IMG/VR virus record: IMGVR_UViG_3300037789_000055
Span: 14,819 to 78,818 of that record
Source: a virus
Taxonomy: Duplodnaviria > Caudoviricetes
Length of the DNA: 64,000 nt
Direction: 5' to 3' (one strand)
The position numbers and the translations under genes were made by a program. Numbering within the stretch: position 1 is the stretch's first letter; each line of letters starts with the position of its first letter. Of the stretch, positions 33,376-63,805 are shown piece by piece. The notes beneath the pieces were generated by a model. The model was given only the letters and a program-made list of their open reading frames with translations, did no database searches and was not told where the DNA came from.

Positions 33376-33579
33376 TTAGAGGCCGAAGCCGAACCAGAGG
33401 AGGAAACCATGGATGGTTCCAACAGGAGCAGCCAGTGCTCCGATCACAGAGAAGGCAATCTGCCCCCCGGTGGCGGGAATGCTGCTAGTAAGGGTGCTGA
33501 TCGCCCAGAGGATATGGGTGACCCAGCCGGCGAGGATCGTGATCATCAGGATCACTCCCCAGAGGAAACCGTTCTTCAT
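33376..33579 (-). CDS. Small membrane protein (2 TM), 67 aa
   Basis: Two hydrophobic helices; TGATG coupling to gapR. Confidence 0.6.
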   Translation of the reverse strand: MKNGFLWGVILMITILAGWVTHILWAISTLTSSIPATGGQIAFSVIGALAAPVGTIHGFLLWFGFGL

Positions 33580-33827
33580 CAGAGCATCCCCAGAGCTTCG
33601 CGGTACATCTCCGCAATGGCTTCTTCCTCGGCGATGTCGTCGGGTTCACGCTTGCGCAGACCGATGATCTTGCGCATCACCTTGGTGTCATAGCCGCGGC
33701 CTTTGGACTCGGCGAAAACCTCTTTGATCTGGTCGGCGATGTCCTTCTTTTCGGCTTCCAGACGCTCGATGCGTTCGATGAAGGCCCGCAGTTCCGAGGC
33801 GGTCACGCGGTAGGTGTCATCTTCCAT
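33579..33827 (-). CDS. gapR: GapR (DUF2312/UPF0335) nucleoid-associated protein
   Basis: ELRAFIERIERLEAEKKDIADQIKEVFAESKGRGYDTKVMRKIIGLRK...EEEAIAEMYREALG is the GapR family signature. Confidence 0.93.
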   Translation of the reverse strand: MEDDTYRVTASELRAFIERIERLEAEKKDIADQIKEVFAESKGRGYDTKVMRKIIGLRKREPDDIAEEEAIAEMYREALGML

Positions 33828-33905
33828 TCAGGTCTTCCTTCTGTTGTAAAAATCTCAGTTGGGACCAGGCCGCTGCGACCCGTCTTTCAGTTTCATTCGG
33901 AGGGC

Positions 33906-34097
33906 TCACTGAACCATCTCCGCGAGTTTCTCGGCCCGAGTCTTGATCCGTTTCCGGTTCTTCTTCTCGGAAGCCGTCCGGAACCCGGGGGGGTTCATGG
34001 TGGCCATCTCCGATGTCAGGACCAGTCGGTCCATTGCGTCCCCAGTGGTCGGATTCTGGCCGAGGTGGAGGGGGATATTCACGCTGCCGTAAGACAT
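33906..34097 (-). CDS. Hypothetical basic protein, 63 aa
   Basis: ATG 34097 with a GAAGGA RBS, overlapping the methyltransferase end. Confidence 0.5.
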   Translation of the reverse strand: MSYGSVNIPLHLGQNPTTGDAMDRLVLTSEMATMNPPGFRTASEKKNRKRIKTRAEKLAEMVQ

Positions 34098-35542
34098 ACC
34101 TGTTCCTTCATGGTGAGATTTGCGTTGATCAGAGCAGCGACCACCGGGGGGCAGACGCTGTTTCCACATTTGTGGGTCTGATGTGTTTTCGGGATCGGAC
34201 GACCATCCGCGGTCGTCTCGATTTCGTAGCTGTCGGGGAACCCTTGAGCCCGAAACTGTTCGCGTGGGGTCAGCATTCGCATACCGATATCCACAATCGC
34301 GTATTCCTCCCCTTGGATCTGGCAGGTCACCAGACCGAAGCGGCCCTTTGTGGTCAGGCTGTGGAGAGGCTCGTCGATCGTCTGACCGACTGCTGTCCCA
34401 TAGTATTTGACCATGAAGGCGGAGACGAGGGCTGCGTGGCCTCCACCAGCGGTGATAGTGGCCAATGGGGTCCGAGCATCCCGAGCCCGACGAGAGCTGC
34501 CGTGCATGCTCATCAGATGAGCCGCCACGAGGTTCTGCTGGGTTCCCCGGGTGGTCAGTGTCGACAGAGGAACGTTCGCCGGCCGGCCGATCACCCCGGT
34601 GTTGTGCTGGGCCAGAAAAGCGGCGACCTTGGTGAAGGTCGGCACAACCAACTGGTTCTGATCTTTCCGACTGGCGGTGATGGTGTGCATCGGTTCGAAC
34701 GCAGAGCGAGACCGACCCCCATGCTGACCATAGGAGATGAAGAACGGATCCTCATCCTCCACAACGAATTTCTGAACCCCTTTGGCGATCCGTTTCAGAG
34801 TATTCTCTGCGAGGGGCCGCTTGGTCTGGAGACCGAACTTCTCCTTGATCTCCTGGGAGGTGTCAAAGATCGATGGAACTGGAACGCTCCAGTCGATGAT
34901 CTCGGCCGCAGTCTTCCAGGGAGCCAGACCGGTGTTCAGCTTCGGGTCCGCGTGGGTTGGGGCAGGCCACACGATCGGCCTTCCGTCACACCGGGCAATC
35001 AGGAAGAGACGCTTCCGGATGGTGGGAACCCCATAATCCGATGCTCTGAGTTCCTTCCACTCGACGTCGTAACCAAGGTTCTTCAGAGCTTGAACGAACT
35101 GCGAAAAGGTATCCCCCGCCTGAGCCCGGCAGGGCTTACCCTCGTCCGTGAGAGGCCCCCAGAGCTGGAACTCCTCGACGTTTTCCAACATGATGACCCG
35201 AGGGCGAACCATCTTCGCCCACTTCACAGCAACCCAAGCCAGGTCGCGGACGCTGTCCGAGACAGGTTTCCCCCCTTTGGCCTTGGAGTGATGGCGGCAG
35301 TCGGGCGAGAACCAAGCCAGAGAGACTGGCCGGCCGGCTGAAACCTGGAAAGGATCTACCTCCCAGACGTCGTTGATCATGTGGGTACAGCCTGGATGGT
35401 TCGCGGCGTGCATCCCTAGAGCTATGTCATCGTGGTTGATGGCGTAGTCTGGGCCGAAGCCGAGGGCCATTTCCATACCAGTGGAGGCTCCCCCTCCCCC
35501 AGCGAAATTGTCAACGATGATGGAATTAGGCTGCATGTTCAT
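34079..35542 (-). CDS. C5-cytosine DNA methyltransferase, ~487 aa
   Basis: DNFAGGGGAS (motif I), FSPDC (IV), MLENVEEF (VI), RKRLFLIA (VIII) and GNSVCPP (X). Confidence 0.92.
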   Translation of the reverse strand: MNMQPNSIIVDNFAGGGGASTGMEMALGFGPDYAINHDDIALGMHAANHPGCTHMINDVWEVDPFQVSAGRPVSLAWFSPDCRHHSKAKGGKPVSDSVRDLAWVAVKWAKMVRPRVIMLENVEEFQLWGPLTDEGKPCRAQAGDTFSQFVQALKNLGYDVEWKELRASDYGVPTIRKRLFLIARCDGRPIVWPAPTHADPKLNTGLAPWKTAAEIIDWSVPVPSIFDTSQEIKEKFGLQTKRPLAENTLKRIAKGVQKFVVEDEDPFFISYGQHGGRSRSAFEPMHTITASRKDQNQLVVPTFTKVAAFLAQHNTGVIGRPANVPLSTLTTRGTQQNLVAAHLMSMHGSSRRARDARTPLATITAGGGHAALVSAFMVKYYGTAVGQTIDEPLHSLTTKGRFGLVTCQIQGEEYAIVDIGMRMLTPREQFRAQGFPDSYEIETTADGRPIPKTHQTHKCGNSVCPPVVAALINANLTMKEQVCLTAA

Positions 35543-38063
35543 ATTCGATTTCCTGGAACAGATATTTGATGACTGTTTCGATCTCCGCCTCGTTGAGGCG
35601 GCTGTCTTTCTCGAAGCCCAGGATCGGGGGGGCTTCGTCGAGTTCGATCTGACCAAGAGGGGCCTTCTCGGGGTGGTAGGGTTCAAAGGTCCGACCCACA
35701 GAAGCAGTGGCGTCGACCATGAGGTGCTTGATGATGCTCGGGTGGTGACACATGGCGCGCTTCGCCAGTCGCAGGAACTCCACGACGTCATCCCGATGAA
35801 CAGAGAACACCAACTCATCGTGGATCGGCATCATGAACCGGAACCGGAGCCCCTCGATCTTGTTGATCGCCAGAATGGACCGCTTGGCCAGCGTGGCGCA
35901 GGATCCCTGGATCATCGAGTTCACGATTTGGTTTGCCGCTCGGTTCGTCAGCTTCTTCACAAACAGCTGGCCGAAGTTCTGGAGCCCTGGGGAAGCAGTC
36001 TGTTGAAACCGATCTGACCAGAGATGTTGCCACCGGTAGGTGGCCTCAAACTTCGTCCGACGGTGACCATCAGGGAGGGTCACGAACCCCTTCTCCCGAG
36101 CTTCGGAGATCAGGTCCACCCGCCACTGTTCGGCCGTTTCGAAAGTGTCCCGGTACTTCTGGGTCATCTCCCACATCTTGTCCGAGGACCACCCCATGGC
36201 CTCCCCCACCGTGGAGAGAGCACCGGAGTACCAGTAGTTGAAGTTGGCGCCCTTGCCGACTTTGGTCCGAAGGTTCTTGGCGTCTGGAAGGCCTTTCGGC
36301 TCATCCGTCTCGAACATGTCCCCGACGGCTTTCCAGTGGAGGTCCTTGAAGGGGATCTGACCGTAGGCATCGGCAAACCCTTCATCCTCGGAAAAGTCCC
36401 CGATCAGGACGAGCTCGATCTGGGACCAGTCGATCGAGACGATCACATGGTCATCTTCATCCGGTTCATAGAAGCCGCGGATGTAGGTAGACTCCCCTCG
36501 CTTCGCCAACTGCATCGGGTTCGGGAATGACGCTGCCATCCGCCGGCTGTTCAGCTGCGAGGACACAACCGGGTAGACTCGCTGTGTCTCGGGATCACAG
36601 AGCATCAGGTACGGGTTCAGATAGAGCTTCATCCGCTGCTCGATCGAGCCGATCTCCCCGAGCAGATCCAGGATGCGGGTGTCTTCGACCCGTTCCTTGA
36701 GCTTGGCCCGCGCGGCGGCATCGGAACCTACCTTGCCACCAGAGATCACGACCTTGTTCCGGCCGAGGTCGTACATCAGGGTCCGCATCATCATCCAATG
36801 GGAGAAGTTCGGACCCTTGGACTTCTTCAGCCCTCGTTCTTCCAACCAGGCGCTCGAGACTGATCCCGCGGTGGTGATAGCTACGTCGAATGCTTCCTCT
36901 GGCAGAGGGCGGTCAGCCCAAGCCTTGATCCGATCACGATAGGTCTTGCCCTCGGACTTCGCGTACCAGTTCTTCATGGCACTGTCCTTCATGAGCCCTG
37001 GGTGGGGAGCCTCATCAAAGGGGAGGAGTTCGTTGATCAACGAGTGAAGCCGGCGGATGGCCTCCGCGTAGTTCTCCCGTTCAGCCTGGCGCTGTCTCTC
37101 GACCGCCTCCAGGTTGATCTTCATACCGGCCTGCCAGATGTCAGCAAACACATAGATCATCGGGTTTTCTTGTTCGAAGAAAGTCGTCAGAAGCTGATCA
37201 TTCTGATAGGGCAGCATCGGGAGGATCCGGTGGAAGATCCGAACAGCCCAGTAGGCGTCATCGGCGCCATAGGCGCAGACCTCATCCCCAGTCAGCTGGC
37301 CCATGTGGGCCCGCCCATCCATAACTTCGGCAAAGGTCGTCTGGTCATAGCCGAACAGGGACTTGACCAGTTTCTTCAGGCCGTAGCCATACGTGTACCC
37401 TTTGGCGATTTCGTTGTAGCTGTGAGTTGCGGTCGAGGTCTTCCCGATGATCTTCCCAAGCAGATCGGCCTGCTTTTCGGTGAGATCCCCGAAGGGGTCC
37501 ATCTCCGCGAAGGCCTCGGCGATCGCGGGAAAGAGATTGGTCATGGCACCGAAGCCACCCCCCAACATCTTGTCCTCGGGGTACTGATCTTCGTTGAAGG
37601 CCGAGACGGCCAGCTGAAGAGTACAGATGACGTTCGTCAGCTCGTGGTCGAGCGACGTTCGCATCATCGTGATTTCAAAGGGGCCATTGTGGCAGATCCA
37701 GTTGCTATCCTCCTGACGAGCGTCGAGGATCTGCTTTGCTTCGGACCAAGGGATCCTGTTCTCGACATCAGCGTGTGCCAGGTTCAGGTAGTAGGCGGTA
37801 TCGCTCTCATCACAGTACCAACTGAACCCGGTGACGACGGTGCGTCGTGTGTCGAAAATCAGCTTCTTGGCGGTTGACTTGATCCCATCGTCGTTCACTT
37901 TCATGAACAGGTTCAGGCCCTCATGCCGATTGTGGTCCTGGGTCTCGATGTCAAATCCCACAAGGCCTGACTGTGATACTTCAGCGATCAGCTGGTCTTT
38001 GAGATCGGTCCAGTTGCGTTGATCAACAAGAACAGATTTCAGGTTGTGATGTTCCACAAGCAT
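35526..38063 (-). CDS. polA: Family A DNA polymerase with a 3'-5' exonuclease domain, 845 aa
   Basis: FDIET exonuclease motif; motif A SIDWSQIEL, motif B GKGANFNYWY, motif C PIHDEL. Start set at ATG 38063 after GGAGG. Confidence 0.93.
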   Translation of the reverse strand: MLVEHHNLKSVLVDQRNWTDLKDQLIAEVSQSGLVGFDIETQDHNRHEGLNLFMKVNDDGIKSTAKKLIFDTRRTVVTGFSWYCDESDTAYYLNLAHADVENRIPWSEAKQILDARQEDSNWICHNGPFEITMMRTSLDHELTNVICTLQLAVSAFNEDQYPEDKMLGGGFGAMTNLFPAIAEAFAEMDPFGDLTEKQADLLGKIIGKTSTATHSYNEIAKGYTYGYGLKKLVKSLFGYDQTTFAEVMDGRAHMGQLTGDEVCAYGADDAYWAVRIFHRILPMLPYQNDQLLTTFFEQENPMIYVFADIWQAGMKINLEAVERQRQAERENYAEAIRRLHSLINELLPFDEAPHPGLMKDSAMKNWYAKSEGKTYRDRIKAWADRPLPEEAFDVAITTAGSVSSAWLEERGLKKSKGPNFSHWMMMRTLMYDLGRNKVVISGGKVGSDAAARAKLKERVEDTRILDLLGEIGSIEQRMKLYLNPYLMLCDPETQRVYPVVSSQLNSRRMAASFPNPMQLAKRGESTYIRGFYEPDEDDHVIVSIDWSQIELVLIGDFSEDEGFADAYGQIPFKDLHWKAVGDMFETDEPKGLPDAKNLRTKVGKGANFNYWYSGALSTVGEAMGWSSDKMWEMTQKYRDTFETAEQWRVDLISEAREKGFVTLPDGHRRTKFEATYRWQHLWSDRFQQTASPGLQNFGQLFVKKLTNRAANQIVNSMIQGSCATLAKRSILAINKIEGLRFRFMMPIHDELVFSVHRDDVVEFLRLAKRAMCHHPSIIKHLMVDATASVGRTFEPYHPEKAPLGQIELDEAPPILGFEKDSRLNEAEIETVIKYLFQEIEYEHAA

Positions 38064-38108
38064 ACAGTCCTCCTGGGAGGTTTGACTTGAAATTGATTTG
38101 AGAGAAGG

Positions 38109-38193
38109 GGCCCCGACCACTCTCCGCACACCAAACGGAGCTAGTCGGGGCCGAAGGCGACTCGGCAGGGGAGGAGCGAGACCCTAGTCGCCT
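38109..38193 (-). promoter_or_regulatory. Two-hairpin structured leader upstream of polA
   Basis: GGCCCCGAC/GTCGGGGCC with inner CTCCG/CGGAG; AGGCGACT/AGTCGCCT with inner AGGG/CCCT. Confidence 0.6.
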
Positions 38194-38200
38194 ATTCCGA

Positions 38201-38872
38201 TTACTCGGCGAGGGTGAAGGTCACGACGCCCCAGGTGTTGCCACCATGGTTGATCTCACGACAGCCGAGTTTCACCTTCACGGTCTGACCGATGAGACCA
38301 GCCTTGGCGCACTCGGCATAGAAATCCGACCACTCGGAGAAGTTCGACTTCGAGGTGTTCAGGCCGATGACGGTGCCGGCGGGCAGCGTCTCTTCCTTCA
38401 GCTTCAGGGGTGCCGTGGTACGAACCACGATATCCACAGCGTTGTAGGGTTCGACGTTCGGATCGGCCATACGGGCCTTCACCAGCGCATCGTTCCACGA
38501 ACCACCCTTGTCGCAGACCATACCATCATAGGACGACAGGTACTGTGCCGGATTGCCGAACCGGAGGGTGTACTTCACCATGAAGCCTTCGTCTTCAACG
38601 AGGGCGATCTCGACCGGGATGTCGTCGATGAAATCCTTGTTCTTGCCGACCCGCATCCCAAATTCGTTGACCTTCAGGTAGGGGGTGTTGCGGGGGATGA
38701 CACCGGTCGCAGCTGCGACAGTTGCCATGGAGGGCTTCTGGTAGGTGGTTGCCACCCCGCCGGGGGAAACCGAGCCCTGGATCACAGCAGTCGAGGCGTT
38801 GACAGCATCATTCGCCACCATACCTTCTGCCGCTTCTTTCGCCTGGTTGATCGCGTCTTGAATTCCAGCCAT
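38201..38872 (-). CDS. Hypothetical replication protein (SSB-like candidate), 223 aa
   Basis: Located between the helicase and polymerase with beta-rich content. SSB function is inferred from synteny only. Confidence 0.4.
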   Translation of the reverse strand: MAGIQDAINQAKEAAEGMVANDAVNASTAVIQGSVSPGGVATTYQKPSMATVAAATGVIPRNTPYLKVNEFGMRVGKNKDFIDDIPVEIALVEDEGFMVKYTLRFGNPAQYLSSYDGMVCDKGGSWNDALVKARMADPNVEPYNAVDIVVRTTAPLKLKEETLPAGTVIGLNTSKSNFSEWSDFYAECAKAGLIGQTVKVKLGCREINHGGNTWGVVTFTLAE

Positions 38873-38909
38873 AGTATTGTCTTCCTAGTTGTGAGTCTGT
38901 TGCATTGAA

Positions 38910-38966
38910 CTGGCTTCTAGGACGTGAGGGGGAGCGGTAACTCCCCCTCGCACCAAACGGAGCCAG
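38910..38966 (-). promoter_or_regulatory. Structured leader with a 13-nt motif shared with the polA leader
   Basis: GAGGGGGAG/CTCCCCCTC hairpin inside CTGGCT/AGCCAG; CACCAAACGGAGC at 38951-38963. Confidence 0.55.
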
Positions 38967-38974
38967 TGGAGTGG

Positions 38975-42138: not shown

Positions 42139-42362
42139 GATGGAGATTGATCCACATTCGACAGAAACAGCTCTGTTTTTTATAGTGCAATTTCAGAGGG
42201 TTAAGATTTTGCGAAACCGAGATCCACAAAATTTGTAATCAGGGGGTCGGGGGTTCGAGTCCCTCGACCGGCACCATTTAACACCCTCAGACTGCACGAT
42301 TTATTCTCAGCTGTTCTTCAAGAATCCTCCTCCTCTTTTGCTGTGTGTCCAGGAGTGTGTCC
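42104..42362. mobile_element. attP: core plus arm-type direct repeats
   Basis: GTGTGTCC at 42104, 42343 and 42355 (plus ATGTGTCT at 42115), flanking a tRNA-derived core next to the integrase 3' end. Confidence 0.8.
42233..42276 (+). other. att core = 3' half of tRNA-Thr(UGU); not a complete tRNA
   Basis: TTGTAATCAGGGGGTCGGGGGTTCGAGTCCCTCGACCGGCACCA covers the anticodon loop, T-arm with GTTCGA, 3' acceptor strand and CCA. There is no 5' half upstream. Confidence 0.88.
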
Positions 42363-43385
42363 GGACAATTCCGCCACGGCCCGGTGAGCAGCAGCTGTAT
42401 CGAGGTGGGCGTACCGCTCAACCATCTGGAGCGAAGCATGCCCCAGGATACTACGGAGGGTCATGAGATCCCCCCCACGTTGAACCCACCAAGAGGCGAA
42501 CGTATGCCTAAGGTCATGAAACCGAAGGTTTTCCAGATTGGCTTCGACTCGAGCCCTTCGGAAAAATCCTCGAAAGCTATGGTAGGGTACAGGTGGGGTG
42601 CCACGACTGAACACCCAAGGTGAGGGATCCCGATGACACCACTCGAGGAGTGTGTCCGAGAACTCTGGGAGAAGAGGGATGATCCTGTCCCTCTGCGACT
42701 TGGTGTATTCTCTCGGAAGTTGAATTTCCCCGTGCCCTCCTCGGGTCCAGTTAATCCACGCCTTCTGGAACTCACAGATCTCGCCGTGTCGCATCCCGGT
42801 GTAGACCGCGGTTGTGATGACCATCTTCTGCCAGGGGAGCCGGCAGTGGGTTCTCAGGCGCTCGTATTCATCGTGGGTCAGGTACCGCTCCCGGCGTCGT
42901 TCTTTCAGATGCCGCTTCGAGTAGCTCATGATCGGATTGACCTCGGGGGCTCCTGTCATCTCCACCTGGGCATAGGTGAAGACCGTTGAGAGAAAGGCAA
43001 GATCCCGACGAACACTGGTGTCAGAGACACTCCGCCGGCGGTCCATCACGAACTCTTTGATCCCAGGCAGATCGATCTCGGCAAGGGAAAGCCCTCCGAA
43101 ATAGGGGTCCACTGCCTTGAGCGAATTCAGATACCCCTCGACCGTCTTTGGCGCCAGGTTCTTTCCCCGGATGTCGAAGAAGCTCACGACGACCTCCTTG
43201 AAGGCTAGTTGGGCCCGACGTGTGTATACTTCCTCGAGGATCTCCCAGGCGCGGGCTTCGTCCTCTGTGCCAGAAGACTGTCGTACCTTTCGTCCATCTT
43301 CTTCACGATACTGGATCTGCCAGAAGGAGCTCCTCTCGCGACGGTAGACTCGGGCACCGGGGATCCGGGATCGATCAACTGACAT
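42318..43385 (-). CDS. int: Tyrosine integrase, 355 aa
   Basis: YTGMRHGEI, FHDLRH, LGHAS and RYAH catalytic residues; N-terminal arm-binding-like WQIQY. Confidence 0.95.
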   Translation of the reverse strand: MSVDRSRIPGARVYRRERSSFWQIQYREEDGRKVRQSSGTEDEARAWEILEEVYTRRAQLAFKEVVVSFFDIRGKNLAPKTVEGYLNSLKAVDPYFGGLSLAEIDLPGIKEFVMDRRRSVSDTSVRRDLAFLSTVFTYAQVEMTGAPEVNPIMSYSKRHLKERRRERYLTHDEYERLRTHCRLPWQKMVITTAVYTGMRHGEICEFQKAWINWTRGGHGEIQLPREYTKSQRDRIIPLLPEFSDTLLEWCHRDPSPWVFSRGTPPVPYHSFRGFFRRARVEANLENLRFHDLRHTFASWWVQRGGDLMTLRSILGHASLQMVERYAHLDTAAAHRAVAELSGHTPGHTAKEEEDS

Positions 43386-43552
43386 GATGGCTGCTTTCGC
43401 TTGAGTATCCAGCGGAGGACTTCCTCGGTGTCAAACCGGAAGCTTCGGCCGATACGATAACATGGGATGATACCCTGAACCGCCCACCGATGGATGGTTC
43501 TGGGTGCAAAGCTGATCAATTCAGCAACATCTCTTGTCGTGATGAGTTCCAT
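43205..43552 (-). CDS. xis: Excisionase-family (MerR-like HTH) protein
   Basis: LITTRDVAELISFAPRTIHRW...IPCYRIGRSFRFDTEEV; 3' part overlaps int. Confidence 0.8.
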   Translation of the reverse strand: MELITTRDVAELISFAPRTIHRWAVQGIIPCYRIGRSFRFDTEEVLRWILKRKQPSCQLIDPGSPVPESTVARGAPSGRSSIVKKMDERYDSLLAQRTKPAPGRSSRKYTHVGPN

Positions 43553-43603: not shown

Positions 43604-43828
43604 CTAGAGGCCTGTGACAATTTGCCGGTAGGGGAAGCTCTTGGGGTCGGCTTTGACCTTCTGATTGAAGGCCCGCCCCACACTCTCGGCGGTGAGGATC
43701 TCGTCGAAAAGTGCCTTCGGAACCGCATCATAGTGGTATTCGGCACCGGTTTTGAACCGTACCCGCATCCCGGTTTGATCGTGGGCCATAGCGGCAATGT
43801 TGCTGCTGACTACCTCTTGGAATTGCAT
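43604..43828 (-). CDS. KTSC-domain protein, 74 aa
   Basis: VSSNIAAMAHD...VRFKTGAEYHYDAVP...AESVGRAFN. Confidence 0.85.
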   Translation of the reverse strand: MQFQEVVSSNIAAMAHDQTGMRVRFKTGAEYHYDAVPKALFDEILTAESVGRAFNQKVKADPKSFPYRQIVTGL

Positions 43829-44091
43829 TAGTTGTCCTCCCTTGGCCAATATCCCAGGCACTGAGGTTGAAGGGGATGTCCCCCGAAGTAGAATCCCTCG
43901 GGAGCTTTCTGTTTCAGTCTTTCGACAGTTTCGTTGAACTGATCAACGGCCTCTTGGGTGTCCCACCAAGGAGACCCTGGTGGTGGAAAAACAAGGTCTC
44001 GTCCTCGTAGCAATCGATCCAGGGAGACGAGACAATCACGAAGGTCCCCTTGGAATTCCACCAGGATGGTGTTGGTGTGGATGGTTCTCAT
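43828..44091 (-). CDS. Hypothetical protein, 87 aa
   Basis: Ends KAPEGFYFGGHP...CLGYW, a recurrent small phage protein pattern. Confidence 0.65.
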   Translation of the reverse strand: MRTIHTNTILVEFQGDLRDCLVSLDRLLRGRDLVFPPPGSPWWDTQEAVDQFNETVERLKQKAPEGFYFGGHPLQPQCLGYWPREDN

Positions 44092-44104
44092 TTCCGGAAA
44101 TATA
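44087..44104. promoter_or_regulatory. Operator-like palindrome, copy 4 (overlaps start codon of 43828..44091)
   Basis: Perfect core ATTTCCGGAAAT at 44090-44101. Confidence 0.65.
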
Positions 44105-44145
44105 TGCCCCCTTTTGAGTTGACAGTCCAGAGTTCGATTGTCGAT

Positions 44146-44174
44146 TTGACTTGATTTCCGGAAATCAAAATAGT
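44146..44174 (+). promoter_or_regulatory. Putative sigma70 promoter of mucR with a perfect 18-bp operator (copy 5) in the spacer
   Basis: TTGACT(44146-51)-17 nt-AATAGT(44169-74); TTGATTTCCGGAAATCAA at 44151-44168. Confidence 0.7.
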
Positions 44175-44206: not shown

Positions 44207-44584
44207 ATGACCGACGAAAAAATCGTGATGAAAGCCGGGGAGATCGTTGCCGCCTACGTCAGCCACAACAGCATGCCTCCTGAGAACGTTCCGGTCTTTC
44301 TGGAAACCCTAACCCACGAAATGGTCAGGCTGATCGGTGTCGAGGAAACTCCTCCTCAACCAGCCGTGCCAATCGAGGAAAGCTATGGTGATGACTTCAT
44401 CATCTGTCTGGAGGATGGGGCCCGGGTGACGCTGCTGAAACGCTACCTAGCCAAGTACCACAACATGACACCTGAGGAGTATCTCGAGAAGTGGGGTCTT
44501 CCAGAGGACTACCCGATGGTTACACCGGAGTATTCCCGCCGGAGGTCATCGATCGCCAAGGACAACGGCCTGGGTCGAAACTGA
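44207..44584 (+). CDS. mucR: Ros/MucR family transcriptional regulator, 125 aa
   Basis: EIVAAYVSHN, PAVPIEES, IICLEDG...LKRYL...H, TPEEY..KWGLP.DYPMV.P.YS..RS.IAK..GLG. Confidence 0.95.
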   Translation: MTDEKIVMKAGEIVAAYVSHNSMPPENVPVFLETLTHEMVRLIGVEETPPQPAVPIEESYGDDFIICLEDGARVTLLKRYLAKYHNMTPEEYLEKWGLPEDYPMVTPEYSRRRSSIAKDNGLGRN

Positions 44585-58492: not shown

Positions 58493-58710
58493 TAGATCAC
58501 TCCCGCCAGAATGGTTGCGGACTGGACAGTGTTGGTGCCGCAGCTCTCACACCACCCCTGATCTTGATCAGGCTCGTACTCCGTGGAGTAGTCACAACCC
58601 TCGTTGATGCAGATCGCCGGCATCAACCCGTCGAACATGTAGTCTTCGATCAGGTCCTCGGGGGCTTGGTACCCCCAGTCGGTGGTCAGTGTTTGCAGTT
58701 TACTGGTCAT
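58492..58710 (-). CDS. Small zinc-ribbon protein, 72 aa
   Basis: CINEGC...WCESCG; hairpin RBS. Confidence 0.65.
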   Translation of the reverse strand: MTSKLQTLTTDWGYQAPEDLIEDYMFDGLMPAICINEGCDYSTEYEPDQDQGWCESCGTNTVQSATILAGVI

Positions 58711-59014
58711 GATATCCTCCAACGGATGTGGGTGTTTCCCCTCACAATTCGAACTCCTGATAAACCACACTTGGTGAATGGGTGTTTCTCCAGTTGGAGA
58801 TTTCATTCTTCCAAACTTCCCGGGCCGCGAGGGGGGTGGAGTATGGTCCAGACTTTTGGAGCCGATTGAATGGTTCCAGGGGCCTCATGGGGTGATATAT
58901 CTGGACCTCATACAGGAGATAATACCTGGCGGTTGTATCCTCGGAACCTTGACCACCCCCTTCCGTGATAGGTGTTTGCAGTTTTCTGGCCATGATATCC
59001 TCCAACGGATGTGG
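58689..59014. repeat. 43-bp direct repeat (41/43 identical) covering the RBS hairpin and first codons of two adjacent genes
   Basis: 58689-58731 versus 58972-59014. Confidence 0.9.
58742..58993 (-). CDS. Hypothetical protein, 83 aa
   Basis: Start at ATG 58993 after a hairpin RBS. Confidence 0.55.
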   Translation of the reverse strand: MARKLQTPITEGGGQGSEDTTARYYLLYEVQIYHPMRPLEPFNRLQKSGPYSTPLAAREVWKNEISNWRNTHSPSVVYQEFEL

Positions 59015-59290
59015 TTAGACGCGGGTCACCTCGAATACGTGGAAGACCATCCAGTCGAGGAAGACTGTGTCGATGATCTCGGAATTCTGAGGCACCGTCC
59101 CTCCGGTCGGGACGACTTGGACAAACCGTCTCAGGTTGAAGACATCCGAGCGAGGATTAACTGTGACCCAGATCACGATGTCCTGGCCCTGCACCCCCGC
59201 TGAGATGATCCTGGCGGGGGAAGGGAGATCGAACGATTGCAGATGAAACCCATCGGCGAGGGTGAACTTCCAGATGGTCAGATCGGTCAT
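59015..59290 (-). CDS. Hypothetical protein, 91 aa
   Basis: TIWKFTL...IISAGVQ...IVIWVTVNP...VPTG, a recurrent small phage family. Confidence 0.65.
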   Translation of the reverse strand: MTDLTIWKFTLADGFHLQSFDLPSPARIISAGVQGQDIVIWVTVNPRSDVFNLRRFVQVVPTGGTVPQNSEIIDTVFLDWMVFHVFEVTRV

Positions 59291-59646
59291 TTCATCACCT
59301 CGTCTTCAAAGCAGTCGATTGCCACCTTGAGATCGTGCATCCTGTTCATGAGATCGTCGGCTTCCTCGTGGAGCAGTTCCCGGGCCCGGGTATCAACGGC
59401 GTTGGCGAGTTCAAGAAACCCAGTCTGCTCCTCGATCTGTTTTTCCATCGAAGTATACCAGTGGGAGAGAAGCTCTTCGAAAACCTTGCCGGGGATCTCG
59501 ACCCCGTTGATCTTCACTTCGGCTGTCAGTTTCCGGGTGTCCATCCACTCAGGGGTGTCCACGATTGTTCGCGCCACATCCGCATCCTGAAGAACCAGGT
59601 GGCCCGTCAGAACAGACGAGTCACCGATGGAGAAAGTGTAGCTCAT
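59287..59646 (-). CDS. Hypothetical protein, 119 aa
   Basis: Coupled ORF. Confidence 0.55.
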   Translation of the reverse strand: MSYTFSIGDSSVLTGHLVLQDADVARTIVDTPEWMDTRKLTAEVKINGVEIPGKVFEELLSHWYTSMEKQIEEQTGFLELANAVDTRARELLHEEADDLMNRMHDLKVAIDCFEDEVMK

Positions 59647-59897
59647 TTGGGATACCTCGCTGGTACTGTTTCTCGGATGTGAACCAGAGCGGCTTCGATA
59701 TCCACACGGAGTTGCTCTGTGTCTTCACGGTTGAAGGTCATCTCCAGCTTCGAGCTCCAGGTGGCCGAGAAGACCAACCCAAACTCGTATGCAAGGAGGT
59801 CCAGTAGGGCCTCCTCCTGGTAGTCATTCAGTCGCCGGGCCTCACCCTGGAGGGTGACGATCAGAAAGGGTGATGGCTCAATCGAAATGCCTTTCAT
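59643..59897 (-). CDS. Hypothetical protein, 84 aa
   Basis: Coupled ORF. Confidence 0.55.
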   Translation of the reverse strand: MKGISIEPSPFLIVTLQGEARRLNDYQEEALLDLLAYEFGLVFSATWSSKLEMTFNREDTEQLRVDIEAALVHIRETVPARYPK

Positions 59898-60370
59898 GGC
59901 CAGACCTCCGTGAATTCGGGGTATTTCAGTTTCAGTCTGGCCATGTGGTTGATGACCCCCTCCTCACCCCAGCCTCGGCGACGGACGGTCAGGGTCTGGT
60001 TCTTCCAGTCGGTCAGGAAGTCGTTGTCGATGATCAGGCCCTCGTACTGGCTCCAGGCCACAGCGCAGAGTCCAATGTCCACGTACTTGTTCTGGCGCTT
60101 AGGGGAGACGTAGCTCGTGATTTCACAGATGTTGATGTTGCCCCGGCGCCAGGTGGCGTGGATGTGGTCGTGGTCATAGTCGCTGTCGTCATGCGACTGT
60201 TGAACAAACCCCATCTCCTCGAGTTTGAGGAACTTGGTGGGCAGTGCCACGTCGATATCTGAGACCGGTCGATTGAGGAGCATGTCCCGCCAGAAGCCTC
60301 CATAGATCACGGCCCCCGGCAGTTCCTTCGCCACTTCCTCGGCGATGTGGTAGGCGATGGTCAGTTTCAT
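59894..60370 (-). CDS. Minimal nucleotidyltransferase (poly(A) polymerase/CCA-adding head-like), 158 aa
   Basis: IYGGFWRDMLLNRPVSDIDV; VDIGLCAVA. Confidence 0.8.
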   Translation of the reverse strand: MKLTIAYHIAEEVAKELPGAVIYGGFWRDMLLNRPVSDIDVALPTKFLKLEEMGFVQQSHDDSDYDHDHIHATWRRGNINICEITSYVSPKRQNKYVDIGLCAVAWSQYEGLIIDNDFLTDWKNQTLTVRRRGWGEEGVINHMARLKLKYPEFTEVWP

Positions 60371-60585
60371 GGTGTCACCTCATAGTGATGAGAGTTCCCG
60401 ATGTAGGATCGGGTCAGCCAGCCGCGGTTGTAGAGATCGAGGCACACGTTCCGAACGGTCCCGATCGGCAGGCCAGTGGCGACGGCGATGTCCTTGGCCC
60501 GGGTCGCAGCTGGATGGGTTTCCAGATATGCAGTGATCAGGTCCTCAGAGGACTTCATCTGCACTCCGGCTTCACGCAGTTTCAT
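60367..60585 (-). CDS. Winged-helix DNA-binding protein, 72 aa
   Basis: RAKDIAVATGLPIGTVRNVCLDLYNRGWL. Confidence 0.75.
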   Translation of the reverse strand: MKLREAGVQMKSSEDLITAYLETHPAATRAKDIAVATGLPIGTVRNVCLDLYNRGWLTRSYIGNSHHYEVTP

Positions 60586-60839
60586 ATTCCCATGATCCTT
60601 TTGAAGTTGCTCTGAACGTGGTGCTCACCTGCTTTGAACCCCCGCCCATAGCCGGCTGAGAAGGCCTCGTAGAAGTGGGTCAGGAGGTGAGGCGCCTGTT
60701 CGAGGGACAGGGTCGGGATCGAGAAGATATGCCACTTGTTGTGGAGCCAGACCTCCGTCAGCATCTCATACCGATAGAGTGTCCATTCCTCGTATCTGTC
60801 GATCTCGGGTTCAGGTGGCATCAGGTCGTTGGGTCTCAT
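60582..60839 (-). CDS. Hypothetical protein, 85 aa
   Basis: Coupled ORF. Confidence 0.55.
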   Translation of the reverse strand: MRPNDLMPPEPEIDRYEEWTLYRYEMLTEVWLHNKWHIFSIPTLSLEQAPHLLTHFYEAFSAGYGRGFKAGEHHVQSNFKRIMGI

Positions 60840-61044
60840 TGGGTGGTACCACCGTTGTTTGGATTTCGGTTCGGATCGTGGCGGGGAGGTGGGTCAGTTT
60901 GGCCCACTCCCGAGCTGCCCGGTCGTCGTCACCATGGGTGACCGAAGGCCAGTAATCCTCAGGGATCCGGATTTGGGTTCCAAAGGGGTCCGGACATTGG
61001 AGGATCACTGAACGGATTTGGTCCCGGGTGATGGTTATACCCAT
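60811..61044 (-). CDS. Hypothetical protein, 77 aa
   Basis: Coupled ORF. Confidence 0.5.
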   Translation of the reverse strand: MGITITRDQIRSVILQCPDPFGTQIRIPEDYWPSVTHGDDDRAAREWAKLTHLPATIRTEIQTTVVPPNETQRPDAT

Positions 61045-61487
61045 GGTGCTTCTCCGGCCATGACCCGCCGAACTGCGGCCGCAGCCTGGGCCGGGGTGCA
61101 GTTGTTGGGGGCGAGACTCTGGTCAAAGAGTTCATGACCCACCCACCATCTCTCCTGTGATATGTGGAGCCCCAGGAAGTCAGCCGCGGTATTCCGGATA
61201 CTGGTCCAGAGGGTGGTCATCTTGGCCTGCGCCTCGAGGGAGGGGAACAGTTGTCCCTCCGGGGCCTGGCTCATCAGATAGGCCGCACCGGCCATACAAC
61301 AGGCCGTTCCGCAGTCCGGTGTTGGATTGGGGTGGGCGTCGATGTATTCCTGGAGCGTGAGATAGTCGGTTTGGTCATAGACATCCTGATCGGTAAGAGG
61401 ACAGACACCGACGTTCATGTCGAAGATGACGTGGGGAGCACCGGCCTCCAACCACTGGGCCAGTTTTTCGAGGTTCTCGAGGTTCAT
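61035..61487 (-). CDS. Hypothetical protein, 150 aa (paralogue of 62861..63193)
   Basis: FDM...CGTACCMAG...LF...TPAQA. Confidence 0.65.
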   Translation of the reverse strand: MNLENLEKLAQWLEAGAPHVIFDMNVGVCPLTDQDVYDQTDYLTLQEYIDAHPNPTPDCGTACCMAGAAYLMSQAPEGQLFPSLEAQAKMTTLWTSIRNTAADFLGLHISQERWWVGHELFDQSLAPNNCTPAQAAAAVRRVMAGEAPWV

Positions 61488-61489
61488 TG

Positions 61490-61925
61490 GAAGATCTCCA
61501 GTTCAGAGGGTTGGTGCTTGATGGGTGTTGATGACGAACTCACCGGACATCCCCATGGAGTCGTACAGATCCCGCTGTAGGATTTTGGCCATGGTGGTAT
61601 TGGGTGAGAACACTTGTTGTTCCACCCGCCAGCAATCTTCGAGCTCGGACTGAGGAACCCGAAACTCCACAGTGAAGATGTGGATGGTTGCTTCAGGGTC
61701 AGGCAGGGGGTCGAAATAGAAGACACAATCCGGATGGGCCATCATCCCCTCTTCAATCGAGAGGTAGTCTGCTGACGAGCCCCGTTCTCCTGAGGGTCCA
61801 TCCGAAAATTGCCATTCAGTGTCCCCGATATCAGCACGACCGGCGTGGGCGTCCGCGTCAGTGACGATACCCTGCACGATCCAGATTTCACGTTTTTTAG
61901 ACATCGTCGAAGATCTCCAGTTCAG
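61490..61925. repeat. 17-bp direct repeat GAAGATCTCCAGTTCAG flanking one gene
   Basis: Identical copies at 61490-61506 and 61909-61925, each containing a GGAG RBS on the - strand. Confidence 0.85.
61503..61904 (-). CDS. Hypothetical protein, 133 aa
   Basis: Start at ATG 61904 after GGAG. Confidence 0.6.
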   Translation of the reverse strand: MSKKREIWIVQGIVTDADAHAGRADIGDTEWQFSDGPSGERGSSADYLSIEEGMMAHPDCVFYFDPLPDPEATIHIFTVEFRVPQSELEDCWRVEQQVFSPNTTMAKILQRDLYDSMGMSGEFVINTHQAPTL

Positions 61926-62151
61926 GATCGGGGTCAACGTCCACGTCGAAGAGGACGTAGTCAGTGGTTTGGGTGGAGAGGATCTGGGTCAGGATCGGGC
62001 AGTTTTCGACGTTGGCCTGTTTCCAGATGAAGAAGCCAGCGTCGTTCGAATAGGCAACGGTCATCCCCGCCTTGGTGATGTCGGACAGGACCATCCTGAT
62101 CTCGTCAGCTGGGAGATGACACAGTGCGATCTCGGAAAAGGTTCTCGTCAT
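61897..62151 (-). CDS. Hypothetical protein, 84 aa
   Basis: ATGA overlap with the ctrA stop; LCHLPADE. Confidence 0.6.
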
Positions 62152-62834
62152 GCCACGACCTGTTCCGGTTCGGGCTCCTGCAACAGATACCCACGACCCC
62201 AAATCGTATGGATGTGCCGGCCGGCGGTGCCGAGCTTCTTCCGCAACTTGCAGATGAACACGTCGATGATCTTCAATTCCGGCTCGTCCATGCCACCATA
62301 AAGGTGGTTGAGGAACATCTCTTTCGTCAGCGTCGTACCCTTGCGCAGGCAGAGCAGTTCCAGCATCTGGTATTCCTTGCCGGTCAGATACACCTGGCGG
62401 TCGTTGACCTTGACGGTCTGGGAGTCGAGATTGACGCTGATGGGACCGGTCTGGATGATGGCCTGGGCGTGGCCCTTGGACCGGCGGATGACCGCGTGGA
62501 TGCGACCGATGAGTTCCTCCCGGTGGAATGGTTTGGTCAGATAGTCGTCGCCCCCGAGACCAAAGAACTTGATCTTGCTTTCGGTGCTGTCGTCGCCGGT
62601 GAGGGCCAGGACCGGGGTGTTGATACGATCCACGCGGATCTGGCGCAGTACGTCATGCCCTGAGATGTCGGGCAGGTTCAAATCGAGCAGTACCAGGTCA
62701 TAGTCATAGAACTTGATGAGATCGACGCCCTCTTCCCCCAGATCGGTCGAGTAGACGTTGAAGCCAGCATGAGTGAGCATGGTCTCGACGCTACGGGCGG
62801 TGTTGGGATCGTCTTCGATGTGCAGAATTCGCAT
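62148..62834 (-). CDS. ctrA: CtrA cell-cycle response regulator (full length), 228 aa
   Basis: [21 protein letters not shown] (D51), [14 protein letters not shown] and [50 protein letters not shown], which are diagnostic CtrA sequences. Confidence 0.97.
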
Positions 62835-62860
62835 GTTTTCCTCCAGCGGAAATGTGGTGA

Positions 62861-63193
62861 TTACAGGTAGTCATCCCAGAGCTTGAACTGGTCGACCTTC
62901 AGGTCCTCCAGTGCTCGAATGGCCATGGCAGGGGTGATATCCGGGAGTGGGACCTTACTCCCTATGGCCACGAACAGCTCCTGACCAAGATCAGGGGAAA
63001 TCCCCAGGGCTTGGCAGTTCTCGGAGAAGGTGCTCTGATAACCAGTCGGGTCCAGGATCAGGTTCGAGAACCCGGCGATACAGGCCACGGTTCCGCAGTC
63101 CCTGTGACGTACCCAGTAGCACATATCGAATTTGGCGATCTCCTCGGCCTGGATCGCGGCGATGATTTCGTCGATGTGTTCAACGTTCGGCAT
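62861..63193 (-). CDS. Hypothetical protein, 110 aa (paralogue of 61035..61487)
   Basis: FDM...CGTVACIAG...LF...TPAMA. Confidence 0.65.
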
Positions 63194-63443
63194 TGATAAA
63201 CTCCTCACAGAATTCCTTGAGATCGCGCATTCTCCAGAGGTGGAACCGGTCCCATTGTTCGAATTCGATCACGCAGTCGATCGATCCATAGTCTCCGATC
63301 TCGATCGACTGCAGTTCGGGAAACTTCCCCTCGGCCCGTTTGATGAAGTCGAAGAAGGCGTCTGGTCCGAGCTGCATGAACGGGATCGGGTCGTCCGGAT
63401 CGAGTTGGAACCGGACAGTGTTCATTTGGAGTTCGAATTTCAT
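63180..63443 (-). CDS. Hypothetical acidic protein, 87 aa
   Basis: Coupled ORF. Confidence 0.55.
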   Translation of the reverse strand: MKFELQMNTVRFQLDPDDPIPFMQLGPDAFFDFIKRAEGKFPELQSIEIGDYGSIDCVIEFEQWDRFHLWRMRDLKEFCEEFINAER

Positions 63444-63805
63444 TCTCTTCGAGCCTCGTGTTGGGCCAAGGTCATGAGTCGGCCTCGGGTTGAGTTGGCT
63501 GGCCGATTGATCAGCTTCGCGATCTGGTTTGTCGGCATGCCGGTGGCTTCGAGTTCGAGCAGACGCTTGTCCTCTTCAGGGGTGAACCGCCGCACCTTGT
63601 AGCCGTTGCGAGTGTATTGCGACGGCTGCTTGGGGCTGGGGCGACGGCGGTGCGCCGGGAGATCAGCTCCGAGCCTCAGGCAGTGGTACATGACGGACTG
63701 TTCGGTCATGTCGATACGCCGGGCTATCTGACCGATGCTGAGGCCTTCCTCGCGCAGCTCCGCGGCTGTGTGGGCCTGTTCCTCGGTGTACTTCCGCCTA
63801 GCCAT
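63440..63805 (-). CDS. Tandem-HTH protein: GcrA-like N-terminal HTH plus Myb-like HTH, 121 aa
   Basis: YTEEQ...EGLSIGQIARRIDMTEQSV...RLG and FTPEEDKRLLEL...QIAKLINRP. Confidence 0.7.
   Translation of the reverse strand: MARRKYTEEQAHTAAELREEGLSIGQIARRIDMTEQSVMYHCLRLGADLPAHRRRPSPKQPSQYTRNGYKVRRFTPEEDKRLLELEATGMPTNQIAKLINRPANSTRGRLMTLAQHEARRE

What the first reader, a model, noticed from the sequence alone, without database searches (positions are those of the whole stretch)
33579..63805. One phage carries a miniature alphaproteobacterial cell-cycle/nucleoid regulator kit: CtrA + MucR + GapR + GcrA-like HTH
Seen: four separate genes, gapR (33579-33827), mucR (44207-44584), ctrA (62148-62834) and a GcrA-like HTH (63440-63805), each in a different phage module. 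Established: in Caulobacter and relatives, CtrA, GcrA and MucR form an interlocked circuit, with MucR silencing many CtrA-activated G1 genes. GapR binds overtwisted DNA and aids type II topoisomerases. In Rhodobacterales, CtrA drives flagella, chemotaxis and gene transfer agent production. Individual phage homologues of GcrA and GapR are known, but I do not recall all four being described together. Inference: the phage may rewire host developmental state in stages. ctrA and the GcrA-like gene would act early, gapR during replication, and mucR from its own operator-controlled promoter near attP, possibly in the lysogen.
Basis: partly seen in the sequence, partly recalled or inferred. Interest (0 to 1): 0.92.

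Follow-up and report, generated by a model that had tools for sequence, protein, structure and literature searches.

The report
Phage carrying its own CtrA regulator
A complete 79-kb uncultivated phage of Rhodobacterales bacteria carries an intact copy of the host master regulator CtrA plus MucR and GapR, but the fourth claimed gene is not GcrA and the genes are not one co-evolved kit.

Summary
The window is 64 kb of a complete 78,818-bp IMG/VR phage genome with terminal repeats, rated 100% complete by CheckV.

**Genes**
- Three of the four claimed genes are real, at the stated coordinates: gapR (PF10073, 113 bits), mucR (PF05443, 124 bits) and ctrA (NCBIfam Rhodobacterales CtrA equivalog, 364.5 against a cut-off of 350).
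- The "GcrA-like" gene is a 121-aa bipartite HTH/Myb-like protein typical of prophage early regions. It scores below the GcrA threshold and has no sigma70-binding domain. Only its first HTH resembles the GcrA DNA-binding domain.

**CtrA**
- It sits inside the Rhodobacterales CtrA clade on a long branch, at most 77% identical to any host copy.
- It keeps D51 and the other phospho-site residues.
- Residues 150-202 of its DNA-binding region are identical to the host consensus.
- The phage genome has no CtrA boxes, so the host chromosome is the likely target.

**Not a kit**
- gapR and mucR are syntenic in the nearest relative phage. ctrA, the HTH gene and the integrase are missing from both near-complete relatives.
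- MucR was found in only 17 of 121 Rhodobacterales genomes, so the Caulobacter CtrA/MucR circuit does not transfer.
- Nineteen other viral records carry full-length CtrA-like genes. Seven also have GapR and none has MucR. None of 50 MucR-bearing viral records has CtrA.
- I found no paper describing a phage-encoded CtrA.

The finding is moderately interesting because of ctrA, not because of a four-gene kit.

The parts
62148..62834 (-). ctrA: full-length response regulator (receiver plus OmpR-type winged helix), 228 aa. GGAGG Shine-Dalgarno 5 nt upstream of the ATG. No promoter or terminator of its own.
   Evidence: NF045991 364.5 bits against cut-off 350. 72-77% identical to host CtrAs. Key residues and DNA-binding region conserved. 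Placed in the Rhodobacterales CtrA clade, SH-aLRT 99. RBS seen; promoter scan.
63440..63805 (-). Bipartite HTH (HTH_7-like plus Myb-like) DNA-binding protein, 121 aa. Not GcrA.
   Evidence: GcrA 22.3 and 20 bits, below cut-off 26.9. phrog_323 matches two stretches. Family of about 20 proteins of about 125 aa found in prophage early regions. AF2 pLDDT 89. Foldseek top hits Cbp1, Pax and IstA; GcrA DBD only at rank 49 over 44 columns.
44207..44584 (+). mucR: Ros/MucR-family protein, 125 aa, with a non-canonical metal site (C-D-Y-H in place of C-C-H-H).
   Evidence: PF05443 124.4 bits. Alignment to Ros87. Comparison with Rhodobacterales and G010 MucRs. Syntenic in G010.
44090..44174 (.). mucR control region. 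Two exact 12-nt palindromes ATTTCCGGAAAT (44090-44101 and 44154-44165). The second lies in the spacer of a TTGACT-17-AATAGT promoter-like site (44146-44174). The first overlaps the start codon of the divergent ORF 43828-44091(-).
   Evidence: The palindrome has 10 sites with at most 1 mismatch genome-wide, against about 0.1 expected.
33579..33827 (-). gapR: GapR/DUF2312 nucleoid protein, 82 aa, inside the replication-recombination module.
   Evidence: PF10073 112.8 bits and PRK13694 113.2 bits against cut-off 94. PDB GapR hit at E 2e-24. 83% identical and syntenic in G010, 56% in G015.
42318..43552 (-). Tyrosine integrase (42318-43385) and an overlapping Xis-like HTH_17 ORF (43205-43552). Absent from the relatives G010 and G015.
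   Evidence: PF00589 E 1e-28. HTH_17 E 2.5e-11. Synteny table.
35526..38129 (-). Family A DNA polymerase, giving the context of the replication module that holds gapR.
   Evidence: PF00476 E 1.3e-32.

Best explanation
This is a complete genome of an uncultivated tailed phage that infects a Rhodobacterales (roseobacter-group) bacterium. It is probably temperate. It carries three genuine homologues of alphaproteobacterial global DNA-binding proteins, and they have different histories and probably different jobs.

1. gapR is an old, conserved gene of this phage lineage and sits in the replication module. It most likely does for phage DNA what GapR does for the chromosome: bind overtwisted DNA ahead of forks and help host type II topoisomerases (inferred from the family).

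2. mucR is also lineage-conserved. It is transcribed alone, next to int-xis, from a promoter embedded in the phage's own palindromic operators. It most likely acts as an H-NS-like silencer or counter-silencer for the phage or prophage. It is unlikely to be a partner of a host MucR circuit, because most Rhodobacterales have no MucR (inferred).

3. ctrA was captured separately from a Rhodobacterales host and has since evolved fast in its receiver domain, but its phospho-site residues are intact. Its DNA-reading region is identical to the host consensus. The likely sequence is expression from the long leftward early operon, phosphorylation by the host CckA-ChpT relay, and binding to the host's TTAA-N7-TTAA promoters. 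That would take over the host CtrA regulon (motility, chemotaxis, gene transfer agent, quorum sensing and surface traits). The phage genome holds no CtrA box, so the host chromosome is the target.

The fourth gene is a generic prophage-type bipartite HTH regulator, not GcrA.

Shown here: gene identities, residue conservation, phylogeny, synteny and distribution. Inferred: expression timing, phosphorylation, DNA targets and benefit to the phage.
For: Element and host:
- Complete phage.
- Host group: the CtrA tree places the phage copy inside the Rhodobacterales clade (SH-aLRT 99 and 95). Its end branch is 0.69-0.9 against a median of about 0.2.
- GapR is closest to those of Ruegeria, Paracoccus and Rhodobacter phages.

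CtrA integrity:
- The EDD pocket, D51, T79 and K101 are kept.
- Residues 150-202 are identical to the consensus of 77 host CtrAs.
- 25 of 165 host-invariant positions are changed, 15 of them in the receiver domain.
- Codon-usage score per codon resembles the other phage genes, and the RBS is good.

No self-targets: there are 0 TTAA-N7-TTAA sites with up to 1 mismatch in 78.7 kb.

Different histories:
- gapR (83%) and mucR (51%) are syntenic in G010.
- ctrA, the HTH gene, int and about 20 neighbouring small ORFs are absent from G010 (92% complete) and G015 (90% complete).

Host baseline: CtrA in 392 of 401, GapR in 115 of 121 and MucR in 17 of 121 Rhodobacterales genomes.

Recurrence:
- 19 other IMG/VR records carry full-length CtrA-like genes. 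Seven are at least 90% complete and one has terminal repeats.
- They are placed with different alphaproteobacterial orders, implying several captures.

Biological context from papers:
- Host CtrA controls genes of several alphaproteobacterial phages (PMC9437464).
- Phage Jorvik needs host CtrA (PMC10589892).
- Roseobacter phage-resistance mutations converge on the CtrA phosphorelay (PMC13392355).
Against: - There is no expression, phosphorylation or binding data. The genome comes from a metagenome and its host is unknown.
- About 0.05 CtrA boxes are expected by chance in this sequence, so finding none is weak evidence.
- Changes in the receiver domain could weaken or retarget phosphotransfer. 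These include L18T in helix alpha-1 and 15 changes at host-invariant receiver positions.
- The C-terminus is 9 aa shorter than in hosts.
- G010 and G015 are only 90-92% complete, so ctrA could sit in their missing parts.
- The viral surveys were seeded by short peptide patterns, not exhaustive HMM searches, so the counts are lower bounds.
Confidence: 0.6

Rival explanations
1. The phage CtrA is an antagonist rather than an activator. It acts as a decoy that soaks up phosphate from ChpT, occupies CtrA boxes unproductively or forms mixed dimers. This shuts down flagella, pili, GTA-recipient functions or surface traits, for example to exclude superinfecting phages or GTAs.
For: The changes are concentrated in the receiver domain while the DNA-binding region is frozen. 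The C-terminus is shortened. Several other viral CtrA-like genes have lost the phospho-acceptor context altogether, for example L248 and L250-L252. Many viral contigs carry stand-alone CtrA-like DNA-binding domains. Both observations fit competitive binding.
Against: In this phage every phospho-site residue is retained, as is the transactivation region within residues 150-202. A pure decoy would not need either.
Confidence: 0.2
2. The phage CtrA regulates the phage's own development, giving a self-supplied version of the CtrA-dependent 'lytic deferment' or lysogeny control seen in other alphaproteobacterial phages. The host regulon would be a side issue.
For: Host CtrA binds promoters of several alphaproteobacterial phages (PMC9437464), and Jorvik needs CtrA (PMC10589892). 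This phage has int-xis.
Against: There is no full CtrA box with up to 1 mismatch anywhere in the genome. The few TTAACC-type half sites are not at the operon junctions. The recurrent regulatory motif at the junctions is a different palindrome, ATTTCCGGAAAT.
Confidence: 0.1
3. The regulators are passenger genes or artefacts. ctrA would be a recently picked-up host fragment without function, or the contig would be a chimera of phage and host DNA.
For: ctrA lies in a hypervariable accessory region and is missing from the relatives. The genome is metagenome-derived.
Against: ctrA is at most 77% identical to any of about 400 host CtrAs and sits on a long branch, so the capture is not recent. The frame is intact, the key residues are conserved and the RBS is good. 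The gene is flanked on both sides by small phage-type ORFs on the same strand. The contig has terminal repeats and is collinear with G010. Nineteen further viral records carry CtrA-like genes.
Confidence: 0.07

Closest known systems
Host CtrA of Rhodobacterales (CckA-ChpT-CtrA phosphorelay; controls motility, chemotaxis, GTA, quorum sensing)
   Same: Same two-domain architecture, the same phospho-site residues, and an identical DNA-recognition and transactivation stretch (residues 150-202). It passes the NCBIfam equivalog cut-off and branches inside the Rhodobacterales clade.
   Different: It is encoded by a phage. It is at most 77% identical to any host copy, whereas the sampled host copies are much closer to each other (end branches about 0.2 against 0.7-0.9). 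Twenty-five host-invariant positions are changed. It is 9 aa shorter at the C-terminus. No cckA or chpT lies next to it.
GcrA homologues of phiCbK-like Caulobacter phages (phage copies of a host cell-cycle regulator; noted in PMC9437464)
   Same: The concept is the same: a phage carrying a homologue of an alphaproteobacterial master regulator.
   Different: The regulator here is CtrA, not GcrA. The 'GcrA-like' gene of this phage fails the GcrA membership tests.
Phages regulated by host CtrA through CtrA boxes (Brevundimonas phage Delta, phiCbK, Mesorhizobium Cp1R7A-A1; PMC9437464) and Jorvik (PMC10589892)
   Same: All link a phage life cycle to the CtrA system.
   Different: Those phages carry binding sites and rely on the host protein. 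This phage carries the protein and has no binding sites.
MucR/Ros H-NS-like silencers, and MucR genes of Erythrobacter, Citromicrobium and Mesorhizobium phages
   Same: Full-length match to PF05443, including the N-terminal region and the C-terminal basic tail. Phage copies already exist in GenBank, and at least 80 IMG/VR contigs carry them.
   Different: The metal ligands read C-D-Y-H instead of C-C-H-H. The H-to-Y change is shared with relative phage G010. It is controlled by the phage's own palindromic operators.
GapR (Caulobacter CCNA_03428) and its many phage homologues (phrog_4212)
   Same: The whole GapR DNA-binding domain is present and is related to solved GapR structures.
   Different: Nothing notable. 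It is one of 151 GenBank phage records with GapR. It scores below the Caulobacter equivalog cut-off (83.6 against 140), as expected for a non-Caulobacter copy.

Membership tests
CtrA (response regulator, Rhodobacterales type) | Score above the curated equivalog cut-off | tested here: met
   NF045991 gives 364.5 bits against cut-off 350, covering positions 1-224 of 224.
CtrA (response regulator, Rhodobacterales type) | Receiver domain with acidic pocket, phospho-acceptor Asp51, switch Thr/Ser and Lys | tested here: met
   E8-D9-D10, D51, T79 and K101 are all present in the alignment with 77 host CtrAs. The receiver aligns to Brucella CtrA (4qpj) at E 3e-44.
CtrA (response regulator, Rhodobacterales type) | CtrA-type winged-helix DNA-binding region | tested here: met
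   Residues 150-202 are identical to the host consensus.
CtrA (response regulator, Rhodobacterales type) | Branches within the CtrA clade rather than with other OmpR-family regulators | tested here: met
   It lies inside the Rhodobacterales CtrA clade, SH-aLRT 99 and 95. The next best NCBIfam model (PmrA) scores only 162 bits.
CtrA (response regulator, Rhodobacterales type) | Phosphorylated via CckA-ChpT and binds TTAA-N7-TTAA | not testable with these tools
   Needs biochemistry. No complex prediction was run.
MucR/Ros | Pfam ROS_MUCR above the gathering score over the full length | tested here: met
   124.4 bits against 25.4, covering positions 3-123 of 123.
MucR/Ros | Cys2His2 zinc coordination (Ros C79, C82, H92, H97) | tested here: not met
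   The aligned positions read C, D, Y and H. C-D at the first two positions is common in the Rhodobacterales MucRs sampled. Y at the third position is shared only with the relative phage G010.
GapR | GapR DNA-binding domain over its full length, related to solved GapR structures | tested here: met
   PF10073 covers positions 2-72 of 72 at 112.8 bits. 6cfy, 6jyk and 6ozx hit at E 2e-24 to 1e-18.
GcrA | Pfam GcrA above the gathering score | tested here: not met
   22.3 bits by hmmscan and 20 bits in the genome search, against cut-off 26.9.
GcrA | C-terminal sigma70-binding domain | tested here: not met
   The protein ends at 121 aa. Residues 73-120 form a second Myb-like HTH instead. phmmer to GcrA 7ye1 reaches only E 0.2 over the N-terminal part.
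GcrA | N-terminal GcrA-type DNA-binding HTH | tested here: inconclusive
   Foldseek aligns one HTH to the GcrA DBD 5yiu (44 columns, 34% identity, rmsd 1.8) but at rank 49 with E 0.5. Generic bipartite HTH proteins rank higher.

The most novel reading that the evidence does not exclude
Phage-encoded CtrA is a counter-move in a phage-host arms race over the CtrA switch. Roseobacters escape phages by damping the CtrA phosphorelay, which makes them less motile and more biofilm-forming (PMC13392355). A phage or prophage that brings its own DNA-binding-identical CtrA could force infected or lysogenic cells back into the motile, CtrA-on state. Alternatively, it could supply CtrA-dependent functions the phage needs in CtrA-low cells. 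The roughly 20 viral CtrA genes, captured several times from different alphaproteobacterial orders, would then form an unrecognised class of phage 'lifestyle-override' regulators.
Probability: 0.2. Interest if true: 0.8.

Novelty: new variant of a known kind. Interest (0 to 1): 0.58.

Why it matters
CtrA is the master switch for motility, cell cycle, gene transfer agents and the planktonic-versus-attached lifestyle in Alphaproteobacteria, including the abundant marine roseobacters. Published work shows three things:
- phages read host CtrA through binding sites;
- at least one phage needs host CtrA;
- roseobacters become phage-resistant by mutating the CtrA relay.

A phage that carries an intact CtrA with a host-identical DNA-reading surface makes the reverse case testable, namely that a phage writes to the CtrA regulon. 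The roughly 20 other viral copies suggest this is a recurrent strategy.

MucR and GapR add less. They are common phage cargo, and MucR is not a core regulator in the probable host group.

Tried and rejected
1. TTAA avoidance as a sign of escape from CtrA. TTAA occurs 26 times against 171 expected from base composition. A second-order Markov expectation is 19, a ratio of 1.37, and relatives without ctrA show the same. Rejected.
2. CtrA boxes in the phage. None were found with up to 1 mismatch. The chance expectation is also near zero, so this shows only a lack of enrichment.
3. Megablast of 24 kb against GenBank phages gave no match. The nearest terminases are Achromobacter phage JWF (54%) and Caulobacter phage Seuss (46%).
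4. A CcrM-type methyltransferase (PF01555) as a partner for a GcrA-like protein. None is present in the genome.
5. GcrA membership was rejected.
6. Other cell-cycle regulators among about 40 neighbouring small ORFs. Pfam and PHROGs found none.
7. Second, divergent ctrA copies occur in 8 of 401 Rhodobacterales genomes. Of the three copies checked, none shared another gene with this phage. I did not resolve whether they lie in prophages.
9. Complex prediction of CtrA with ChpT was not run. It would probably pass through likeness to the solved 4QPJ complex and teach little.
10. Genome G170 is unpublished.


Full report
**What the element is.** The window is bases 14819-78818 of a single 78,818-bp IMG/VR virus record. 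The record has a 127-bp direct terminal repeat, and CheckV estimates it to be 100% complete.

A codon-usage-trained ORF call gives about 114 genes. They fall into two blocks:
- a rightward structural block: large terminase, portal-size and capsid-size proteins, and 1773-aa and 2405-aa tail proteins;
- a leftward block of about 45 kb holding replication, nucleotide metabolism and many small ORFs.

Pfam identifies:
- terminase gpA ATPase, primase-polymerase/D5 helicase, family A DNA polymerase and an SNF2 helicase;
- RNR alpha and beta, ThyX, dNMP kinase, MazG and an SbcCD-like pair;
- a tyrosine integrase and an overlapping Xis-like HTH_17 ORF.

No GenBank phage is similar at the DNA level. The terminase is 54% identical to that of Achromobacter phage JWF and 46% to that of Caulobacter phage Seuss.

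**The four genes.** All four ORFs exist at the stated coordinates.

| Gene | Window position | Best family result |
|---|---|---|
| gapR | 33579-33827, minus | GapR_DNA-bd over the whole model, 112.8 bits; solved GapR structures at E 2e-24 |
| mucR | 44207-44584, plus | ROS_MUCR over 121 of 123 positions, 124.4 bits; Ros87 at E 1.6e-23 |
| ctrA | 62148-62834, minus | 'CtrA, Rhodobacterales' equivalog, 364.5 bits against cut-off 350 |
| HTH gene | 63440-63805, minus | GcrA only 22.3 and 20 bits against cut-off 26.9 |

The fourth gene is the weak one:
- HTH_7 fits better, and phrog_323 ('D5-like transcriptional regulator') matches two stretches.
- It belongs to a small family of about 20 proteins of about 125 aa.
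- Two family members on long contigs lie in prophage early regions. These regions hold an integrase plus, in one case, GapR and, in the other, a CI-like repressor.
- A profile of the family hits Myb repeats and the tandem-HTH protein Cbp1 in the PDB, but not GcrA.
- The AlphaFold model (pLDDT 89) shows two three-helix bundles joined by a hairpin.
- Foldseek ranks Cbp1, Pax paired domains and IS21/Tc3 bipartite HTHs first. The GcrA DNA-binding domain (5yiu) appears only at rank 49, over 44 columns at 34% identity and rmsd 1.8.
- There is no sigma70-binding domain, and the genome has no CcrM-type methyltransferase.

It is therefore a bipartite HTH regulator whose first HTH resembles the GcrA DNA-binding fold. 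It is not a GcrA.

**CtrA in detail.**
- The best matches in a 5.8-billion-protein collection are all host Rhodobacterales CtrAs at 72-76% identity, roughly equidistant. Nothing is closer.
- Of 401 Rhodobacterales species genomes, 392 have CtrA. The best is 77% identical to the phage copy.
- The phage copy lies inside the Rhodobacterales CtrA clade (SH-aLRT 99 and 95). Its end branch is 0.69-0.9 against a median of about 0.2.
- Against 77 host sequences, the acidic pocket, D51, T79 and K101 are intact, and residues 150-202 of the DNA-binding domain are identical to the host consensus.
- 25 of 165 host-invariant positions differ, 15 of them in the receiver domain.
- The C-terminus is 9 aa shorter and ends in VVA.
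- The gene has a GGAGG ribosome-binding site. No promoter-like site on its own strand and no terminator was found, so it is probably co-transcribed with the upstream small ORFs.
- Its codon score per codon matches that of other phage genes.

This is an old capture under selection, not a fresh passenger.

The phage genome contains no TTAA-N7-TTAA site, even allowing one mismatch. The phage therefore differs from those that use host CtrA through clustered sites (PMC9437464), and the likely target is the host chromosome. The scarcity of TTAA itself is explained by lower-order composition and is the same in relatives without ctrA.

**MucR in detail.**
- Aligned to Ros87, the four zinc ligands (C, C, H, H) read C, D, Y, H.
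- C-D at the first two positions is common among the Rhodobacterales MucRs I sampled. Y at the third position is shared only with the MucR of relative phage G010.
- mucR is essentially the only plus-strand gene in the leftward block.
- Its 115-bp upstream region holds two exact copies of ATTTCCGGAAAT, 64 bp apart. One lies in the spacer of a TTGACT-17-AATAGT promoter-like site. The other overlaps the start codon of a divergent 87-aa ORF.
- The palindrome occurs 10 times genome-wide with up to one mismatch, against about 0.1 expected. One copy lies in the divergent region between the early and structural operons.

So mucR is wired into the phage's own regulatory motif.

MucR was found in only 17 of 121 Rhodobacterales genomes. 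GapR was found in 115 of 121 and CtrA in 392 of 401. The Caulobacter picture of MucR silencing CtrA-activated genes therefore cannot be assumed for this host group.

**History and co-occurrence.** Eight IMG/VR contigs share the terminase at 60-74% identity. Two are near-complete:
- **G010** (75 kb, 92% complete) is collinear with this phage. It has gapR (83%) and mucR (51%) in the same positions.
- **G015** (74 kb, 90% complete) has gapR (56%) only.
- Neither has ctrA, the HTH gene, the integrase or about 20 neighbouring small ORFs.

Wider surveys gave the following results.

| Survey | Result |
|---|---|
| GapR in GenBank phages | 151 records |
| MucR in GenBank phages | 6 records |
| Mesorhizobium phage Cp1R7A-A1 (published) | has both MucR and GapR |
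| MucR in IMG/VR | at least 80 contigs |
| MucR-bearing viral records with a CtrA-like gene | 0 of 50 (25 are at least 90% complete) |
| Other viral records with full-length CtrA-like genes (42-64% identity) | 19; seven at least 90% complete, one with terminal repeats |
| Of those 19, with MucR | 0 |
| Of those 19, with GapR | 7 |

- In G001, gapR lies about 240 bp upstream of ctrA, with one small ORF between them.
- The viral CtrAs are placed with different alphaproteobacterial orders, which implies several independent captures.
- Some have lost the phospho-acceptor context.
- In the sets I surveyed, the CtrA+MucR+GapR triple is unique to this genome. The pairs are not unique, and the triple looks like an accretion rather than a module.

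**Literature.**
- Full-text searches found no description of a phage-encoded CtrA.
- Host CtrA binds and regulates promoters of several alphaproteobacterial phages, and phiCbK-like phages carry GcrA homologues (PMC9437464).
- Phage Jorvik cannot infect a ctrA deletion strain (PMC10589892).
- In Roseobacter denitrificans, phage-resistance mutations converge on ctrA, chpT and cckA. These mutants have lower motility and more biofilm (PMC13392355).

**Mechanism and verdict.** The most likely picture:
- GapR serves phage replication.
- MucR serves as a phage- or prophage-level H-NS-like silencer under the phage's operator system.
- The captured CtrA binds host CtrA boxes to override the host's motility, GTA and lifestyle regulon.

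Whether the CtrA activates or antagonises that regulon is open. Retained phospho-site and transactivation residues favour activation. Receiver-domain divergence and the existence of degenerate or DBD-only viral relatives keep the decoy reading alive.

The "interlocked four-part kit" interpretation is not supported. The phage-borne CtrA is the finding worth following up.

The earlier notes of this scan on the same window (e1-5891532, -535, -536, -534) say similar things. They are not independent evidence, and I re-tested their claims here.

Noticed in passing
window 32834, 39019, 44090, 44154, 47282, 48023, 54220; L001 1668, 1822, 6651: The 12-nt palindrome ATTTCCGGAAAT occurs 10 times with at most 1 mismatch (6 exact), against about 0.1 expected. 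Sites are mostly at gene junctions. One lies in the divergent region between the early leftward operon and the terminase operon. It looks like the operator of an unidentified phage regulator.
   Followed up: partly
window 42318-43552: The integrase and the Xis-like ORF are absent from the two closest near-complete relatives (G010, G015). In G010, about 0.8 kb of other sequence occupies the slot. This lineage may have switched between virulent and temperate lifestyles.
   Followed up: partly
IMG/VR loci L258, L260-L311: Dozens of viral contigs encode only a CtrA-like DNA-binding domain (query residues about 130-220, 40-79% identity) without a receiver domain. These are possible stand-alone competitors for CtrA boxes.
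   Followed up: no
IMG/VR loci L267, L269-L271, L273, L280: Several proviruses of about 40 kb end exactly inside the 3' end of a host-like ctrA (residues about 170-224, 64-79% identity). This suggests integration next to ctrA, or boundary calls there.
   Followed up: no
G258:C3:55256-55927, G122:C13:74660-75322, G343:C173:4126-4806 (L147-L149): Eight of 401 Rhodobacterales genomes hold a second, divergent CtrA-like gene (40-66% identical to the phage copy). I did not resolve whether these copies lie in prophages.
   Followed up: partly
L114-L118 (G050, G057, G072, G106, G125): In the minority of Rhodobacterales that have MucR, some carry tandem pairs of divergent MucR paralogues a few hundred bases apart. 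One of each pair has canonical C-x2-C and the other does not.
   Followed up: no
L023 (G010:C1:28587-28889): The MucR of relative phage G010 appears truncated just after the DYP motif, so it lacks the C-terminal basic tail. This could be a frameshift, an assembly error or a real truncation.
   Followed up: no
IMG/VR loci L248, L250, L251, L252: Some viral CtrA-like proteins have lost the LLDLxLPD phospho-acceptor context while keeping the DNA-binding domain. That would make them phosphorylation-independent variants.
   Followed up: no
L002 9427-10684 (G001, 65 kb, 100% complete): In another complete viral genome, gapR, a 77-aa ORF and a ctrA-like gene (62% identical) lie head to tail as an apparent operon.
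   Followed up: partly
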